Assembly: GCA_010093815.1 (NCBI GenBank)
Contig: ML996574.1
DNA length: 64,000 bases
From: Pseudovirgaria hyperparasitica
Lineage: Eukaryota
Reading direction: 5' to 3' (one strand)
Shown here piece after piece: positions 8,810 to 13,860 of this stretch. A program made the translations under genes and the position numbers. Within the stretch, counting starts at the first letter, position 1; the number at the start of each line of letters is the position of its first letter. The notes below the pieces were generated by a model, which was not told where the DNA came from, searched no databases, and was given only the letters and a program-made list of their open reading frames with translations.

Positions 8810-9545
8810 ATCGTATTAAATACAGCCAGACAATATGTTCTACCACTCAACGCCCCAGAGACCAGTCTGCACTCTAACTTCACCTTATTCATAACACATA
8901 ACATCACACGCAAACACACAATCACTCAAACCCCAAAACAGACAACCTTCCCAAGAAACACAAATAACCTCAGAATCTCACTCAGATGAAATTCTCATGA
9001 ACCAAAAGTGCAAGAACTACATTACGCATAGACATAAATAGACATCACGTGTATAAGTTTGTGGCCCCAATCTTGGAAGACATGCAGCAGCGCATGCGAC
9101 CTATGCACTCTCCTCGTATGATCCTACGCTTTTCCTAGTTCGGAACAACTCAGAGCAAGACCTCTAGCCCCTGATATACACCAATCAGTATAACATGCCC
9201 TGAGAGGTTCTCTGGTGTGCTCCCGAGGGCCGGTAAGTAGCACTGAGTGGAGACAGGAGTGGGAAGCTCCAGATTGCTACCTGAACGACTACTATGAGCA
9301 GTTCACGGCAGGCATTGCTAGTAGGAATCATGCAATGGCGGTTCAGAACCATGTGGGTTAAGAGTGGAAGGACAGCAGCATCACTGGACGAAAGTTTGGC
9401 AGGAGCGGTCCCATCACGTGGAGCACGCACCCGGAACGATACACGAATACACTTTGAGCAAGTCACACAAGACACAACCTGATTATGATGAGAATTACTG
9501 AAGCGTGTACCAAAAACAAAGACGAGAGACTCTCAAACCCCATAT

Positions 9546-10904
9546 TTAACGCTTGCTTCGACGACGCGCCTTGCCATTTGACTTCTTCCCAGCATCGGCA
9601 TTGCCACTACCTCTTCGAACAGTGTAGCCAGCAGCGTCGTTTTCATTTGGCACAACCTCGACCAATCTTACCCCTTCTTCGGGACTCGGTGTCCTGCTCT
9701 CATCAGATATCTCGTGGCCAAGCGAACTATGTCTGTACGTTGAGCCCGGAAGCGCGGGATCAGAGTTCGATGCGGGGAGTCTAGCACCGCCGACGGGCAC
9801 GCGCCTTGTGATAGGCGCGTAGGCGACGTCGGACGATCCAGAAACTACGCGTCGACTGCCGTTTCCTGTCGGATATGGCGCCTGCGGCTGCAGCGCAGGG
9901 TTCTGATGGGTAAACGGATCGTACTGTTGAGCTTGTGGCTGTTGCTGAGCATATGAGTTTGATGACGAGCGAGAACGGTGCATATAGTCAAAGTCCTCAG
10001 CGGAAGGTATAGACTGCCGCGAGCCAGGACGTATAGGAGATGAATAGTAACTTCCTGGCACATCGTATGACTGCGGAGGAGTAGTGTTGCGAGTATTGCT
10101 GCTAGCAGAGCGCGAATTGGGTCTAGAGTGCGATTCGGAGCGCTTGCGAACAGGACCTGGTGATGCCTGCGCCATACCGTAGCTGATAGGGTAGATTTGA
10201 TTACCATTCGGCCCTGGAACCACGAAACCCGGCCCAGGAGCTTGCGGCATATCATCGTAGGATGACATTCGGCTTGTTGCCTTCGATTTTGGTCTAGCTG
10301 GCGAAGCGCTGAAGATAGAGGCGCGAGAGGAAGTTTTCTTTGATCGCAGACTCCCTGTGGCAACGGATGGCTTAGTTTGCTTGATCGGTGGTCGTTGGTA
10401 GGGGGCATCGGCTTGTATTGTTCGCCGGCCCTCAAGCGCAGCCAACTCTTCGTGCGTGAGCTTCACACCAGCTCTACCCTTCGCTGTTGCTTTCCGTATC
10501 CGCTCGATGGCTCGTTGGTAAATAATTTCGTCGTCTTCTGCAGGGTTCAATTGAAGTACGACACCTGGTTGGTCTGCGTAATCGTCGTAGTCCTCCTCCG
10601 AAGACTCAAAGTTCTCTCCATACGCAGGCCCTTCGTCTTGTCTTGAACTCGCTAAATCATATCCATCAAAATACAAGTGATCTGAAGAATAACGCCCCTT
10701 TTGTAACACTGGATCCAATAAAACGCCTTCGGACTCACTGTCCAACTCTTGAAATCTATATACGTCGTTTGGAGGTCTCTCCCATGCCCTTCGTCTCCGA
10801 CCAAGACCTCCATCTGGTGGTCTTCCCCCGGAAGGGGGCAAAGCATAAGGAGTTCGCGGCCGACCACCTAGACCGCCTCCTCTGAAAAAGCTGACTCGAT
10901 GGGT
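9546..10904 (-). CDS. 452-codon ORF of unknown function in the -1 frame of YIP3, with no AUG until 10268; possibly a recoded or spliced C-terminal extension of Yip3
   Basis: The frame is open from just after TAA (10907-10905) to the stop at 9546. Composition is protein-like: acidic patch, amphipathic helix DDEIIYQRAIERIRKA...LTHEELAALE, S/P/R-rich disordered tail and basic C-terminus. The start is undefined. Confidence 0.7.
   Translation of the reverse strand, partial: THRVSFFRGGGLGGRPRTPYALPPSGGRPPDGGLGRRRRAWERPPNDVYRFQELDSESEGVLLDPVLQKGRYSSDHLYFDGYDLASSRQDEGPAYGENFESSEEDYDDYADQPGVVLQLNPAEDDEIIYQRAIERIRKATAKGRAGVKLTHEELAALEGRRTIQADAPYQRPPIKQTKPSVATGSLRSKKTSSRASIFSASPARPKSKATSRMSSYDDMPQAPGPGFVVPGPNGNQIYPISYGMAQASPGPVRKRSESHSRPNSRSASSNTRNTTPPQSYDVPGSYYSSPIRPGSRQSIPSAEDFDYMHRSRSSSNSYAQQQPQAQQYDPFTHQNPALQPQAPYPTGNGSRRVVSGSSDVAYAPITRRVPVGGARLPASNSDPALPGSTYRHSSLGHEISDESRTPSPEEGVRLVEVVPNENDAAGYTVRRGSGNADAGKKSNGKARRRSKR
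10771..10871 (-). other. Putative structured RNA element (two stem-loops with complementary loops) at the YIP3 stop codon
   Basis: Sense-strand pairings: GGTGGTC (10868-10862) with GACCACC (10822-10816); inner CCCCC-TTCC-GGGGG (10838-10825); GGAGGTCT (10811-10804) with AGACCTCC (10778-10771). The loops CTCCTTATGCTTT (10852-10840) and AGGGCATGGGAG (10790-10779) are complementary to each other. Confidence 0.6.
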
Positions 10905-11398
10905 TTATCCATAAAGGCAGCGTGACCCAGAATGCTGACACCGCTAGCTCCGATGAGCCAGAGGACAGTTGCTAAGGGCGAAGAAATAAATGCAAGTGGG
11001 ACGGAAATGCAGATGAGTACGGTGTAGAGCTGCGAAGTCGTAGCACGCACGAAGCCGACATCGAGGTCTTGGCCTTGGAGCTTGCCAATTCCGTACATTC
11101 CACCAACCACAAGGAAGATGAGGAATAGGAGTTTGAGGTTCGTTAGAAGGCTGTAGATCGAGAGCATGACAAAGACAACGGCGTAGTTGCTAGAGAAGTA
11201 TCCCAAGTTGTAATTGACTCTGCTTTGGACTTCGCCGAAATTTTGAGGCTTCGAAACACGCTTCACATCGAGAAATTCGCCAATGGGCTTGAGGTTGGAG
11301 AACCGGCTCCCCAAGGACTGGGTGCGAATGCCATCGAAGCGACCGGAGAGGTTCAGACGCGATGTGATGGCGTCGAGAGGGATGTTGATGCGCGACAT
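10868..11398 (-). CDS. YIP3: Prenylated Rab acceptor PRA1-family protein Yip3
   Basis: 176-aa intronless ORF with RVNYNLGYFSSNY, two hydrophobic hairpins and HAAFMDKPIESAFSEEAV*. Confidence 0.93.
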   Translation of the reverse strand: MSRINIPLDAITSRLNLSGRFDGIRTQSLGSRFSNLKPIGEFLDVKRVSKPQNFGEVQSRVNYNLGYFSSNYAVVFVMLSIYSLLTNLKLLFLIFLVVGGMYGIGKLQGQDLDVGFVRATTSQLYTVLICISVPLAFISSPLATVLWLIGASGVSILGHAAFMDKPIESAFSEEAV

Positions 11399-12465
11399 CG
11401 TGAAAGAGGATTAAAATCTAATAACTTTGGTATTATTAGCAGAGGTTCTCGGTAGTGACCATCGCGCAATGTCTCAAGCATGAGACGAGATGGAGGCTGA
11501 AAAAGGCACATACGTCTCAAAGAGGATTACAAGAACGACAAACGCGCGAAGACAGAGCAGTGTCGACGCAGGTGAACAACGAGCGACAGGCGACGGCGAT
11601 GATGGTGCAGTGAAGATGAAAGAAGTGAAGATGGGAATTGATAGGGGTAGCGACAAGTACAAAATTAGAACAGGCGACGGTGCGAAGTTAACGGCGTGGA
11701 AAAGTTGTTTTAAGCTTTAGTGAGGAAGGACGCGGATCTCCTGAGCCATCAGACACCTGGCCTGACAGCCTGACAGCCTGACAGCCTTGAAGCCTGAGGG
11801 CGATAATCTCCTCACCGTGCTAGGCCGTTTCGGGGTGTAATTGTAAGCACCAGCAGGAACACGAAAACACACGAAATGCTTTCCACGGCGTGACAGACAG
11901 AACAGACAGCAGGCTTCATTCAGGATCTGCTCAGTTGTAGAGTGTAATTCAGTGCAGGGTACAAGTATCAAAGTTTGAAGAGACAGTGATGCAACAACAC
12001 ACATACCACGTACCTTGGAGCTGTCGGTGTGTTGTCCTCAGATATGGCTGACCATTGCAGTGTCCTGCCTATGCACCGCAGCGGCGCCGGAGGTCCGAAA
12101 CGGCGGTAAACACGCTCAATGCAGTGTACTTTGAGCTGCAACCGAGTAAAACAAAGGACGGTGAGGAGGAGAGGTGAAGTTGGCGGTAGACGTCTACGTT
12201 CTGGGGGCGCGGCGGCCTTTTTATCACTCTATGTGTACCAAAAGTTGACTTCTGCATACTGTGCGCCTGATTGGGCCACGTTCGGCATCGTCTGGGGATG
12301 GTCCTGGAAGTCCTAGGGGTTTTAGCGCAGCCTGCCACCGCCCGGGCCCCGGCTTCTGCTCGCCAAAACTTCACAAGCACAAAGCCTAGAGCCATGTCCA
12401 CTTTTCCACTCGGCTCGTGAATCGTGTCTTCTATTTTCTCTCGACAGCCACTCATCCTCTCAACG

Positions 12466-13860
12466 ATGAGGTCCTCATTGCTGCCACTGCTGTTGGTAGC
12501 CCTTGCGGCGCTCGTCGCTGCTTGGAGCAAGGAAGGTCAGTCAACCTAATTCATCTCAATCGCGATGCACTGGAGTTCAAGAGTCCCTGTGTATCTTGCC
12601 AAAATTTCTCGAATCGCAATTGCTTCAAACCATCTCGTCTAAGCTGCAACAAAATACTGACACTGTCTTCCAGACCATGAGATCTTCCGCCTCCACGACG
12701 AAGTCACTGCCCACGAAGGCGCAAACACGACCTTCTACTCCTTCATTGGCGTCTCGCCCTCCGCAACCCAGGACGAGCTCAACAAAGCCTACCGCAAGAA
12801 GTCGCGCTCACTACACCCGGACAAAGCTGTACGTAGCTGGGAAGCTGAATACGCGCTGAAGCACAAAAAGTCCCAGAAAGGCACCAAGCCTGGCGTCAAG
12901 GTTTCGAAGGGACCCTCCAAGAAGGAACTCGAGAAATACCGTGTCGAAGCCTCTGAGCGCTTCGCCCGTCTTGGTCTTGTCGCTGGCGTGCTGCGTGGCC
13001 CTGGTCGCGATCGCTACGACCATTTTCTCCGCAATGGCTTCCCGACATGGCGCGGCACCGGGTACTACTACGCACGCTTCCGGCCCGGGCTGGGCAGTGT
13101 CTTGTTCGGACTGTTCATTGTCGGCGGCGGTTTCGCGCATTATGGTGCCATGTTACTGAGCTGGAAGCAGCACCGCGAATTTGTGGAGCGCTATGTCCGA
13201 CACGCGAGACGTACGGCGTGGGGTGACGAGACGGGAATCCAGGGGCTGGACAACATTGGCGAGACGGTCGCTGCACCACCACCAGCGCAGCCACAGCAGA
13301 GCGAGGAGGCAGACGGCATGCAGCTGCTAAACCGTCGACAAAAGAGACAGCAGGAAAAGGAGGACAAGAAAGCAAGCAAGAAGCCCGGCGGCAAGAAGAG
13401 CGGCAATGGATCGAGCACACCGCGCGGGTCGGGCGTGTCCACGCCCGTGTCTGCGCCCGTCGATGCAACACTCACGTCAGGTCCGGTTGGCGCGAAGAAG
13501 CGCGTGCGCGCCGAGAACGGCAAGACTCTCGTCGTCGACTCTGTCGGCAACGTCTATCTCGAGGAAACGACCGAGGACGGCCAGACGCACGAGTATCTGC
13601 TCGACCCCGAGGAGATCCCACGTCCGTCCATCTACGACACGCTCGTATTCCAGGCGCCGAAATGGGCGTGGCGGAAGTCTGTAGGGAAATTCTTCACTAG
13701 CAGCGACGCTGAGCCCGACTCGCCCGTTGATGAGCCGACTGTCTTGACTCCGACGACGAGCGAGGACGAAGCGGTCGAGAAGCTGAAGGGCGCCATGGCC
13801 GCAAACCCGAACAGCGAGGCCAGGAAGCGCAATGTAAAGAACCGCGCGCACAGGAAATAG
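12466..13860 (+). CDS. ERJ5: ER-type DnaJ (J-domain) membrane protein, Erj5-like; exons 12466-12535 and 12674-13860
   Basis: Signal peptide [20 protein letters not shown], then SKE|DHEIFRL, a J-domain with [31 protein letters not shown] and a TM segment. Confidence 0.85.

What the first reader, a model, noticed from the sequence alone, without database searches (positions are those of the whole stretch)
9546..11398. YIP3 overlaps a long AUG-less -1-frame ORF: candidate programmed frameshift or non-canonical expression system
Seen: YIP3 (minus strand) ends ...GCT TTT TCA GAG GAG GCG GTC TAG. In the -1 frame a stop (TAA, 10907-10905) is followed by 452 open codons (10904 to 9546) overlapping the last 37 nt of YIP3. 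The first in-frame ATG is 212 codons in (10268), yet the AUG-less part holds the most protein-like segment (DDEIIYQRAIERIRKATAKGRAGVKLTHEELAALE). There is no intergenic space for a promoter. Inference: the ORF is expressed from the YIP3 mRNA, by one of three routes. (a) A -1 slip, at GCU_UUU_UCA (10891-10883) or at the G_GUC_UAG stop; neither is a canonical X_XXY_YYZ heptamer. This would give a ~615-620 aa Yip3 fusion with a long disordered tail (...GLGGRPRTPYALPPSGGRPPDGG...). (b) Splicing into the TTTTTCAG acceptor-like site at ~10882; no clear CTRAC branch point is visible. (c) Non-AUG or internal initiation, e.g. the TTG at 10841. Any of these would be an unusual bi-functional locus for a Rab/membrane-traffic factor. 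I cannot tell whether it has been described before.
Basis: partly seen in the sequence, partly recalled or inferred. Interest (0 to 1): 0.88.

Follow-up and report, generated by a model that had tools for sequence, protein, structure and literature searches.

The report
Known YIP3 programmed -1 frameshift site

Summary
A 176-codon YIP3/PRA1 ORF (minus strand, 11398-10868) overlaps by 37 nt a 452-codon -1-frame ORF (10904-9546). That ORF has no ATG for its first 212 codons.

This layout is the hallmark of the programmed -1 ribosomal frameshift of Pezizomycotina YIP3, shown experimentally in Podospora anserina (PMC3777964, 2013).

The window has every sequence feature that paper names:
- a slippery U UUU UCA at codons 171-172 (10889-10883)
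- a G+C-rich stem 1 directly downstream, with a 3-nt bulge
- a loop that holds the UAG stop and pairs with GACCACC (10822-10816) to form a pseudoknot

RNA-derived contigs cover both ORFs colinear with the genome. They show no splice or indel at the junction, and only a 5'UTR intron is removed.

In 80 related metagenome loci the slippery run is invariant. The frame-0 stop lies exactly 6 codons after UUU in 79 of 80, and the -1 frame stays open for 386-566 codons. Stem 2 shows compensatory changes.

The predicted products are 176 aa (19.2 kDa) and 617 aa (67.2 kDa). Splicing and assembly error are rejected, and non-AUG initiation is at most a side route. Novelty: already known.

The parts
11514..11662 (-). 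5'UTR exon 1 of the YIP3 mRNA, as far as the RNA contig reaches. The true transcription start is not determined.
   Evidence: X2 record 4 covers 11662-11514 joined to 11424-9468.
11425..11513 (-). 89-nt intron in the 5'UTR (GTATGT...CTAAT...AG on the minus strand)
   Evidence: a joint from 11424 to 11514 skips 89 nt, with ends CT..AC on the + strand, in one contig of each of X1 and X2. Sequence read. The P. anserina orthologue also has its only intron in the 5'UTR (173 bp; PMC3777964).
10868..11398 (-). YIP3/PRA1 short-form CDS in frame 0: 176 codons plus UAG (10870-10868), 19.2 kDa
   Evidence: Pfam PF03208 E 2.9e-40. Mass.
10905..10907 (-). TAA in the -1 frame, 5 open codons upstream of the UUU. 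Together with the frame-0 UAG it confines any shift to 10904-10871.
   Evidence: A -1-frame stop lies 6 or fewer codons upstream in 19 of 80 related loci, and only 2 codons upstream in L054.
10883..10889 (-). Slippery sequence U UUU UCA (frame-0 codons 171 UUU and 172 UCA)
   Evidence: CUUUUUCC in 67 and CUUUUUCA in 13 of 80 related loci, with the U5C run invariant. The paper names U UUU UCC at codon 170.
10847..10882 (-). Pseudoknot stem 1 hairpin. 10880-10871 pairs with 10861-10856 and 10852-10849. The 3-nt bulge GAA is at 10855-10853. In this window two more pairs form (10882-10881 with 10848-10847). The 9-nt loop UAGGUGGUC (10870-10862) holds the YIP3 stop.
   Evidence: Folding, and (-16.6 kcal/mol, z -2.14, 7 of 200 shuffles fold at least as well). 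All 10 core pairs are 100% paired in 58 distinct sequences.
10862..10868 (-). 5' arm of pseudoknot stem 2 (GGUGGUC, in the stem 1 loop)
10816..10822 (-). 3' arm of pseudoknot stem 2 (GACCACC), a perfect 7-nt complement of 10868-10862
   Evidence: The six core pairs are 98.3% paired, with G-C to A-U in 12 rows and U-A to C-G in 2 rows of 58.
10825..10838 (-). Small CCCCC/GGGGG hairpin inside pseudoknot loop 3. This element is conserved and may be an extra helix.
   Evidence: helix 5: 99.6% paired, 3 of 4 pairs never vary.
10839..10841 (-). UUG in the -1 frame, 16 codons after UUU and 27 nt after the UAG. It aligns to AUG in many relatives and is a candidate secondary start, not shown to be used.
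   Evidence: ATG 31, GTG 12, TCG 8, TTG 3, GCG 2, ACG 1, gapped 1, of 58 distinct rows.
9546..10883 (-). -1-frame extension read after the slip: 445 codons from AGA 10883-10881 to 9549, then a stop at 9548-9546. It is Ser/Pro/Arg/Gly-rich, hydrophilic, has pI 9.6 and no Pfam domain. The long form is 617 aa, 67.2 kDa.
   Evidence: Homologues.
9468..9545 (-). 3'UTR as far as the RNA contig reaches
   Evidence: X2 record 4 ends at 9468, and depth falls from 169 to 3.4 beyond it.

Best explanation
This locus is the window organism's orthologue of the Pezizomycotina YIP3 gene, which is expressed through a programmed -1 ribosomal frameshift. One mRNA carries both ORFs, and its only intron is in the 5'UTR. 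Most ribosomes read frame 0 to UAG 10870-10868 and make the 176-aa Yip3/PRA1 membrane protein. A minority slip back one base at U UUU UCA (10889-10883) and pass the UAG out of frame. The slip is promoted by an H-type pseudoknot that begins 0-2 nt downstream: a 10-12 bp G+C-rich stem 1 with a 3-nt bulge, a 2-nt loop 1, a 7-bp stem 2 and a loop 3 of about 26 nt. Those ribosomes read 445 more codons, giving a 617-aa Yip3 with a long hydrophilic, basic, probably disordered tail.

Shown here: the ORF geometry, the slippery run, the stems, their conservation and covariation, and continuous unspliced RNA cover. Inferred from the P. anserina experiments: that the slip really occurs and the long protein is made. 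The role of the long form is unresolved even in P. anserina.
For: - The 5' ORF is PRA1/YIP3.
- The 3' ORF is homologous to a Pezizomycotina-only protein. 11 of its 32 database hits are annotated as PRA1 fusions with mutually inconsistent junctions, as expected when gene callers bridge a frameshift with invented introns.
- PMC3777964 reports for PaYIP3: the same two-ORF mRNA; U UUU UCC at codon 170; a stem-loop/pseudoknot 2 nt downstream with a conserved 3-nt bulge; 12 cDNAs unspliced except in the 5'UTR; an 88-kDa GFP-tagged long form on western blots; 1% frameshifting in a yeast reporter against 0.3% for an out-of-frame control; and conservation across Pezizomycotina.
- The window has U UUU UCA at codons 171-172, stem 1 with a GAA bulge, and a perfect 7-nt stem 2 complement.
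- RNA-derived contigs have two GT..AG introns removed. They cover 11662-9468 colinear with the genome apart from the 5'UTR intron, with no indel.
- In the 80 related loci: the U5C run is invariant; the frame-0 stop is exactly 6 codons after UUU in 79 of 80; the -1 frame is open for 386-566 codons and the +1 frame for only 14-80; and 79 of 80 have a YIP3 homologue (65-82% identity) in frame 0 ending at that stop.
- The base after UUUUUC is only C (46) or A (12) in 58 distinct rows. These are the two choices that keep Ser in frame 0 and Arg in frame -1.
- Downstream of the stop, third-codon positions that lie in stems are invariant or covary, while the one in the bulge varies A/G.
Against: - There is no protein or ribosome-profiling evidence for this organism. 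The frameshift itself is inferred by homology.
- Contigs cannot prove a single RNA molecule, and they drop rare isoforms.
- The heptamer does not fit X XXY YYZ, and the spacer is 0-2 nt rather than 5-9.
- In the paper the reporter efficiency was only 1%, the pseudoknot did not stimulate the IBV slippery site well, and the long form alone did not complement the deletion.
- Covariation is modest. 15 of 21 pairs never vary, and 'pairs with a change on both sides' (3) was reached by 26 of 500 shuffles.
- The loci were found with peptide patterns covering the motif, and the structure was derived from the window itself. Both bias the counts toward conservation.
- The 93-nt fold as a whole is not unusual (z -0.87, 45 of 200 shuffles fold at least as well).
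Confidence: 0.88

Rival explanations
1. The 3' ORF is translated on its own rather than as a fusion. Initiation would be at the UUG 10841-10839 (AUG in many relatives), by reinitiation 27 nt after the YIP3 stop or from an internal transcript, giving a protein of about 431 aa.
For: The codon aligned to this UUG is ATG in 31, GTG in 12, TTG in 3 and ACG in 1 of 58 distinct rows. ATG is the first in-frame ATG (codon 16/17) in 46 of 80 loci. Databases hold stand-alone models starting there (P0001, P0015, P0032). Contigs cannot exclude an internal transcription start.
Against: - TCG (8) and GCG (2) at that codon are not near-cognate starts.
- M, V and L are an ordinary conservative amino-acid series.
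- Stand-alone models start at the first ATG by construction.
- The base after UUUUUC is restricted to C or A, which fits -1-frame reading from the slip site.
- In P. anserina the tagged product had the size of the fusion (88 kDa with GFP).
- In 34 of 80 loci, and in the window, the first ATG lies 26-218 codons in.
Confidence: 0.06
2. A minor mRNA isoform restores the frame. This could be a small frame-shifting intron ending at the TTTTTCAG acceptor-like site, or RNA polymerase stuttering that adds a U in the U5 run.
For: TTTTTCAG looks like a 3' splice site. Contigs drop rare variants, so a minor isoform cannot be excluded.
Against: No joint and no inserted or deleted letter appears between 11424 and 9468 in either run. 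12 of 12 P. anserina cDNAs were colinear with the gene here. A -1-frame stop 2-6 codons upstream of UUU in 19 of 80 loci, and in the window, leaves no room for an intron whose acceptor precedes the FF codons. Five U's are few for transcriptional slippage (general knowledge).
Confidence: 0.03
3. Assembly error or decaying gene: a 1-nt indel split what is really one ORF.
For: None beyond the adjacency of the two frames.
Against: RNA-derived contigs agree with the assembly letter for letter. The same frame offset and the same stop position recur in 79 of 80 independent loci.
Confidence: 0.01

Closest known systems
PaYIP3 (Pa_1_8470) of Podospora anserina and its Pezizomycotina orthologues: programmed -1 frameshift (Malagnac et al., PLoS One 2013, PMC3777964)
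   Same: - The 5' ORF is YIP3/PRA1, and a long domain-less 3' ORF lies in the -1 frame.
- The slip site is a U5 run about 6 codons before the stop (codon 170 there, 171 here).
- The stem-loop/pseudoknot lies almost directly downstream, with a 3-nt bulge in stem 1.
- The only intron is in the 5'UTR.
- The short form is about 19 kDa (19.5 there, 19.2 here).
   Different: The A-site codon is UCA here rather than UCC, as in 13 of 80 related loci. The long form is 67.2 kDa against 61.6 kDa. The 5'UTR intron is 89 nt against 173 bp. No experiment exists for this organism. These are ordinary orthologue differences.
Canonical viral -1 frameshift signals, e.g. the coronavirus IBV 1a/1b site (U UUA AAC, 6-nt spacer, H-type pseudoknot)
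   Same: An H-type pseudoknot with a long G+C-rich stem 1, a short loop 1, a 6-7 bp stem 2 and a long loop 3. The -1 shift extends a protein past a stop. The paper itself draws the IBV comparison.
   Different: The heptamer does not fit X XXY YYZ and the spacer is 0-2 nt, not 5-9. Efficiency is low (1% in yeast). The PaYIP3 pseudoknot did not stimulate the IBV slippery site well, and the authors favour single P-site tRNA slippage or a trans-acting factor. This is a cellular gene, not one derived from a retroelement.
Edr/PEG10 and Ma3 (mammalian cellular -1 frameshift genes)
   Same: Cellular genes that use a -1 frameshift to lengthen a protein. The Edr pseudoknot also has a 3-nt bulge in stem 1 (as stated in the paper).
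   Different: Those genes derive from domesticated retroelements and use tandem slippage on canonical heptamers. YIP3 shows no such ancestry (paper's statement).

Membership tests
Pezizomycotina YIP3 -1 programmed frameshift (PaYIP3 type) | The 5' ORF is the YIP3/PRA1 orthologue | tested here: met
   Pfam PF03208 E 2.9e-40, residues 32-172 of 176. 65-82% identity to the frame-0 ORF of 79 related loci.
Pezizomycotina YIP3 -1 programmed frameshift (PaYIP3 type) | A long 3' ORF in the -1 frame overlaps the end of YIP3, has no known domain and is restricted to Pezizomycotina | tested here: met
   452 open codons in the -1 frame. No Pfam hit at E<=0.1. All named homologues are Pezizomycotina. The Atlas neighbours are domain-less Ascomycota clusters named 'Prenylated Rab acceptor 1'.
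Pezizomycotina YIP3 -1 programmed frameshift (PaYIP3 type) | The 3' ORF is homologous to the P. anserina extension itself | not tested
   I had no P. anserina sequence to compare. Indirect support only: a Sordariomycete PRA1-fusion model (P0030, Sarocladium) matches at E 4.8e-10, and the paper states the extension is shared across Pezizomycotina.
Pezizomycotina YIP3 -1 programmed frameshift (PaYIP3 type) | The mRNA is colinear with the gene across the junction (no splicing or editing), with an intron only in the 5'UTR | tested here: met
   the only joint on the stretch is 11424/11514, and no indel or changed letter is seen. This is contig-level evidence, so rare isoforms are not excluded.
Pezizomycotina YIP3 -1 programmed frameshift (PaYIP3 type) | Slippery U UUU UCN about 6 codons before the YIP3 stop | tested here: met
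   U UUU UCA at 10889-10883, codons 171-172. The same is seen in 80 of 80 loci (UCC 67, UCA 13).
Pezizomycotina YIP3 -1 programmed frameshift (PaYIP3 type) | A G+C-rich stem 1 about 2 nt downstream, with a conserved 3-nt bulge | tested here: met
   (minimum-free-energy structure). 10 of 10 core pairs are 100% paired in 58 rows. The bulge is GAA, GAG or GGG.
Pezizomycotina YIP3 -1 programmed frameshift (PaYIP3 type) | Pseudoknot stem 2 between the stem 1 loop and a downstream segment, with compensatory changes | tested here: met
   GGUGGUC 10868-10862 pairs with GACCACC 10822-10816. 98.3% of cells are paired. G-C changes to A-U in 12 rows and U-A to C-G in 2 rows. Slid controls are 35.5-68.9% paired.
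Pezizomycotina YIP3 -1 programmed frameshift (PaYIP3 type) | The long fused polypeptide is actually produced | not testable with these tools
   Shown only for P. anserina (GFP western blot).
Canonical -1 PRF signal (X XXY YYZ, 5-9 nt spacer, structure) | The heptamer fits X XXY YYZ in frame 0 | tested here: not met
   U UUU UCA: the A-site codon UCA is not YYZ. The paper notes the same for UCC.
Canonical -1 PRF signal (X XXY YYZ, 5-9 nt spacer, structure) | A spacer of 5-9 nt before the stimulatory structure | tested here: not met
   Stem 1 starts 0 nt (with the G.U and A-U pairs) or 2 nt (conserved core) after the heptamer.
Canonical -1 PRF signal (X XXY YYZ, 5-9 nt spacer, structure) | A downstream H-type pseudoknot | tested here: met
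Termination-reinitiation or non-AUG initiation of a separate downstream protein | A conserved AUG or near-cognate start close to the upstream stop | tested here: inconclusive
   ATG 31, GTG 12, TTG 3 and ACG 1, but also TCG 8 and GCG 2, of 58 rows. The sequences are related, and M/V/L is a conservative series.

The most novel reading that the evidence does not exclude
The frameshift may not be the only route to the 3' ORF. An in-frame AUG lies 16 codons after the slip site and 27 nt after the YIP3 stop, inside loop 3 of the pseudoknot. It is AUG in 46 of 80 related loci and UUG here. It could let terminating or scanning ribosomes start a stand-alone extension protein of about 431 aa. The locus would then yield three products, with the pseudoknot gating both events. 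The small conserved CCCC/GGGG hairpin just after this codon could then be part of a start-site context rather than mere coding sequence.
Probability: 0.08. Interest if true: 0.45.

Novelty: already known. Interest (0 to 1): 0.15.

Why it matters
In the authors' words (PMC3777964), the YIP3 frameshift would be the first cellular -1 frameshift that lengthens a protein and does not derive from a retroelement. They also state it has been kept for over 400 million years. Its mechanism is not settled (non-consensus heptamer, 0-2 nt spacer, bulged pseudoknot, possibly a trans-acting factor), and neither is the role of the long form.

This window adds no new kind of biology. It does give a clean further example with RNA support. 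With the 80 metagenome loci it also shows how rigidly the roughly 75-nt signal is kept.

The practical point concerns annotation. Public gene models treat the locus inconsistently: 11 of 32 hits are fusions made with invented introns, and others are stand-alone 'prenylated Rab acceptor 1' proteins that lack the PRA1 domain. Rfam 15 gave no match to the element. Pipelines for Pezizomycotina genomes should flag it as a recoding site.

Tried and rejected
- **Constitutive splicing into TTTTTCAG (about 10882).** Rejected: there is no joint in the contigs.
- **A GTGAGT...CAG stretch of 57 nt inside the 3' ORF (10739-10683) as an intron.** Rejected: there is no joint, its length is a multiple of 3, and homologues align through it.
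- **My early inference that the stop must always be UAG.** Wrong: UAG 67, UAA 11 and UGA 1 among the 79 loci with the stop at that place.
- **RNA runs.** No RNA holder is listed. The two runs of unknown kind, from one sample and one study, turned out to be RNA-derived, judged by two removed GT..AG introns. Being contigs, they give no transcript ends, no expression levels and no rare isoforms.
- **The search for related loci with the 24-sequence alignment A1.** It failed because no stretch was conserved enough. It was repeated with the 8-sequence alignment A2.
- **Rfam scan of 10700-11000 at E<=1.** No match.
- **Earlier notes of this scan.** Nothing by place or by words.
- **Literature follow-up.** Searches for 'PaYIP3', 'YIP3' with 'ribosomal frameshifting', and a search limited to papers up to 2012 found no further primary study. 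PMC9375231 was seen only as a search listing. The 2008 P. anserina genome paper, cited by the 2013 paper as the first mention, was not found in the library and was not read.
- **Fold of the whole 93-nt region.** Not significant (z -0.87). ViennaRNA cannot predict the pseudoknot.
- **Pfam on the extension.** No family.
Full report
**Observation.** On the minus strand, a 176-codon ORF runs from ATG 11398 to TAG 10870-10868. It is a PRA1/YIP3 protein (Pfam PF03208, E 2.9e-40). In the -1 frame, TAA 10907-10905 is followed by 452 open codons down to a stop at 9548-9546. This overlaps the last 37 nt of YIP3. The first in-frame ATG is at 10268.

**The downstream ORF is a real, conserved coding sequence.** A search with it returned 32 proteins at E<=1e-3, and all the named ones come from Pezizomycotina. 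Eleven of the 32 carry PF03208, so they are annotated as PRA1 fusions. I read 15 of the 32. Eight of those reach a shared motif, FFRGGGLGGRPR(T/A)P, which in the window spans the YIP3 stop in the -1 frame. The fusion models join PRA1 to this motif at different, mutually inconsistent places. Other models start at the first available ATG. This is what gene callers produce when they must bridge a frameshift.

**RNA evidence.** No run is on record as RNA. The two runs that hold the stretch come from one sample and one study, and they behave as RNA assemblies.
- An 89-nt GT..AG intron (11513-11425) in the YIP3 5'UTR is removed.
- A 138-nt GT..AG intron (12536-12673) in the neighbouring + strand gene is also removed.
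- Depth changes stepwise at gene borders.
- One 2109-nt contig covers 11662-11514 joined to 11424-9468. That is the 5'UTR, YIP3, the whole -1 ORF and 78 nt beyond its stop.
- There is no further joint, indel or changed letter.

This excludes an assembly indel and any dominant splice between the ORFs. Contigs cannot prove a single molecule, and they drop rare isoforms.

**Literature.** A search for 'Yip3', 'frameshift' and 'fungi' found Malagnac et al., PLoS One 2013 (PMC3777964). I read its abstract, Introduction, all of the Results, and part 1 of 2 of the Discussion. I did not see its figures or supplements. It reports the following.
- The P. anserina PaYIP3 mRNA carries a YIP3 ORF and a larger domain-less 3' ORF in the -1 frame.
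- Twelve cDNAs were identical to the gene apart from a 173-bp intron in the 5'UTR.
- The likely slip site is U UUU UCC at codon 170.
- A stem-loop, possibly a pseudoknot, lies 2 nt downstream. Its stem 1 is G-C-rich at the base and has a conserved 3-nt bulge.
- An 88-kDa GFP-tagged long form is made from the wild-type allele.
- Frameshifting in a yeast dual reporter was 1%, against 0.3% for an out-of-frame control.
- The arrangement is conserved in Pezizomycotina except Ascosphaera apis and Arthrobotrys oligospora. Capnodiales and Ophiostomatales have a +1-frame variant.
- The long form alone does not complement the deletion, and its role is unknown.

Further searches found no later primary study.

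**Membership tests on the window.**
- The slippery run is C UUU UUC A, read as U UUU UCA in frame 0. It lies at 10889-10883, codons 171-172.
- Folding gives a stem 1 of 12 bp. 10882-10871 pairs with 10861-10856 and 10852-10847. A GAA bulge lies at 10855-10853, and the 9-nt loop UAGGUGGUC contains the stop.
- The hairpin alone folds at -16.6 kcal/mol, z -2.14, and 7 of 200 shuffles fold at least as well. The 93-nt region as a whole is not unusual (z -0.87).
- Seven loop bases, GGUGGUC (10868-10862), are perfectly complementary to GACCACC (10822-10816).
- The result is an H-type pseudoknot with a 2-nt loop 1 and a loop 3 of about 26 nt. This is the architecture the paper describes.

**Independent comparative test: how the loci were gathered.** One scan of metagenome contigs with an 8-sequence alignment returned 95 confirmed stretches, of which the best 80 loci were kept. 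They were found with the peptide patterns R[EVY][SC]FFRGGG and LGGRPRTP[YH]. Conservation of those residues is therefore partly imposed by the search.

**Frame geometry over all 80 loci.**
- The heptamer context is CUUUUUCC in 67 and CUUUUUCA in 13.
- The frame-0 stop lies exactly 6 codons after UUU in 79 (UAG 67, UAA 11, UGA 1). The exception is L032, which has UAC there.
- 79 of 80 have a YIP3 homologue at 65-82% identity in frame 0 ending at that stop. L032 starts only 19 nt upstream of the run, so it could not be tested.
- The -1 frame is open for 386-566 codons in the 60 loci that reach a stop. The +1 frame is open for only 14-80 codons.
- A -1-frame stop lies 6 or fewer codons upstream of UUU in 19 loci, only 2 codons upstream in L054, and 5 codons upstream in the window. 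Any shift must therefore occur within about 25-37 nt that contain the slippery run.

**Base-pair counts.** I took one row per distinct 104-nt segment, which gave 57 loci plus the window.
- 98.5% of 1217 cells are paired. Shuffles gave 97.8 +/- 0.2, and 0 of 500 reached the observed value.
- Stem 1 is 100% paired. 8 of its 10 pairs are invariant and 2 change on one side only.
- The six core pairs of stem 2 are 98.3% paired. G-C changes to A-U in 12 rows and U-A to C-G in 2 rows.
- Slid controls are 35.5-68.9% paired.
- The caveats are real. 15 of 21 pairs never vary. The count of pairs with double changes (3) was reached by 26 of 500 shuffles. The structure was derived from the window itself.
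- Column composition helps. Downstream of the stop, -1-frame third positions that lie in stems are invariant or covary, whereas the one in the bulge varies (A 51, G 7).
- The base after UUUUUC is only C or A. These are the two letters that keep Ser in frame 0 and Arg in frame -1.

**Products.** The short form is 176 aa, 19.2 kDa. The long form is 617 aa, 67.2 kDa, on either slippage model. The two models differ only in residue 172, Ser or Phe. The 445-aa extension is rich in Ser (12.8%), Pro (10.6%), Arg (10.3%) and Gly (9.2%), has pI 9.6, and has no hydrophobic segment (maximum Kyte-Doolittle 19-residue mean 0.45, against 2.11 in Yip3). It ends in a basic tail and has no Pfam domain. Its nearest ESM Atlas clusters are domain-less Ascomycota proteins auto-named 'Prenylated Rab acceptor 1' (scores 0.93 and 0.92). 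These are the same ORF annotated on its own.

**Rivals.**
- Splicing and assembly error are rejected by the RNA contigs and by the conserved geometry.
- Transcriptional slippage or a rare isoform cannot be excluded with contigs. It is unlikely given the 12 of 12 colinear cDNAs in P. anserina and the shortness of the U5 run.
- Independent initiation at the UUG 10841-10839 has a weak hint in its favour. The aligned codon is ATG in 31, GTG in 12, TTG in 3 and ACG in 1 of 58 rows. However, it is TCG in 8 and GCG in 2, and the P. anserina product has the size of the fusion.

**Verdict.** It is an ordinary orthologue of a recoding site published in 2013, so it is already known. What remains open is the exact slippage mechanism and the role of the long form, here as in P. 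anserina. Rfam 15 gave no match to the element, and public gene models of the locus are inconsistent. That is the one practical lesson.

Noticed in passing
window 11425-11513 (minus strand): The YIP3 5'UTR contains an 89-nt GT..AG intron with a CTAAT branch-like site, and it is removed in the RNA contigs. The P. anserina orthologue also has its only intron in the 5'UTR (173 bp), so the position class seems conserved.
   Followed up: partly
window 12536-12673 (+ strand): A 138-nt GT..AG intron of the neighbouring + strand gene is removed in the contigs (loose end at 12535 joins to 12674). By eye the downstream ORF (12661-13860) has a J-domain-like '...HPD...' segment. This was not tested against Pfam.
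   Followed up: partly
L032:12-115: This is the only one of the 80 loci without the frame-0 stop. It has UAC where its near-identical relatives (L027, L028, L064, L075) have UAA, so frame 0 stays open for 84 codons. It could be a read error, a polymorphism or a natural readthrough-type variant.
   Followed up: no
L013:849-952 and L023:655-758: A 3-nt insertion in the pseudoknot loop (UAGGUCGUGGUC instead of UAGGUGGUC), together with GGUUUAG instead of GGUCUAG. Stem 1 keeps pairing through a C-G to U.G change.
   Followed up: partly
window 10825-10838 (minus strand), alignment A3 columns 66-79: A small CCCC(C)/(G)GGGG hairpin sits inside pseudoknot loop 3. It is 99.6% paired in 58 rows, and one pair changes C-G to U.G (11 rows) or U-A (1 row). 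It also encodes the conserved P-x-W-G-R-P residues, so RNA and protein constraint cannot be separated. It is not mentioned in the parts of the paper I read.
   Followed up: partly
window 10839-10841 (minus strand), alignment A3 columns 63-65: The in-frame codon 16 codons after the slip site is AUG in 46 of 80 loci and UUG in the window. It is a possible secondary start for a stand-alone extension protein.
   Followed up: partly
window about 11763-11786 (minus strand): Three tandem copies of GGCTGTCA lie about 100 nt upstream of the 5' end of the RNA contig, in the presumed YIP3 promoter region. Seen by eye.
   Followed up: no
proteins P0003, P0007, P0008, P0011, P0013, P0017, P0019, P0024, P0026, P0029, P0030, P0020, P0032: Public gene models of this locus are inconsistent. 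Eleven fuse PRA1 to the extension through differing invented introns. Others are named 'prenylated Rab acceptor 1' or 'Yip3' although they contain only the extension.
   Followed up: partly
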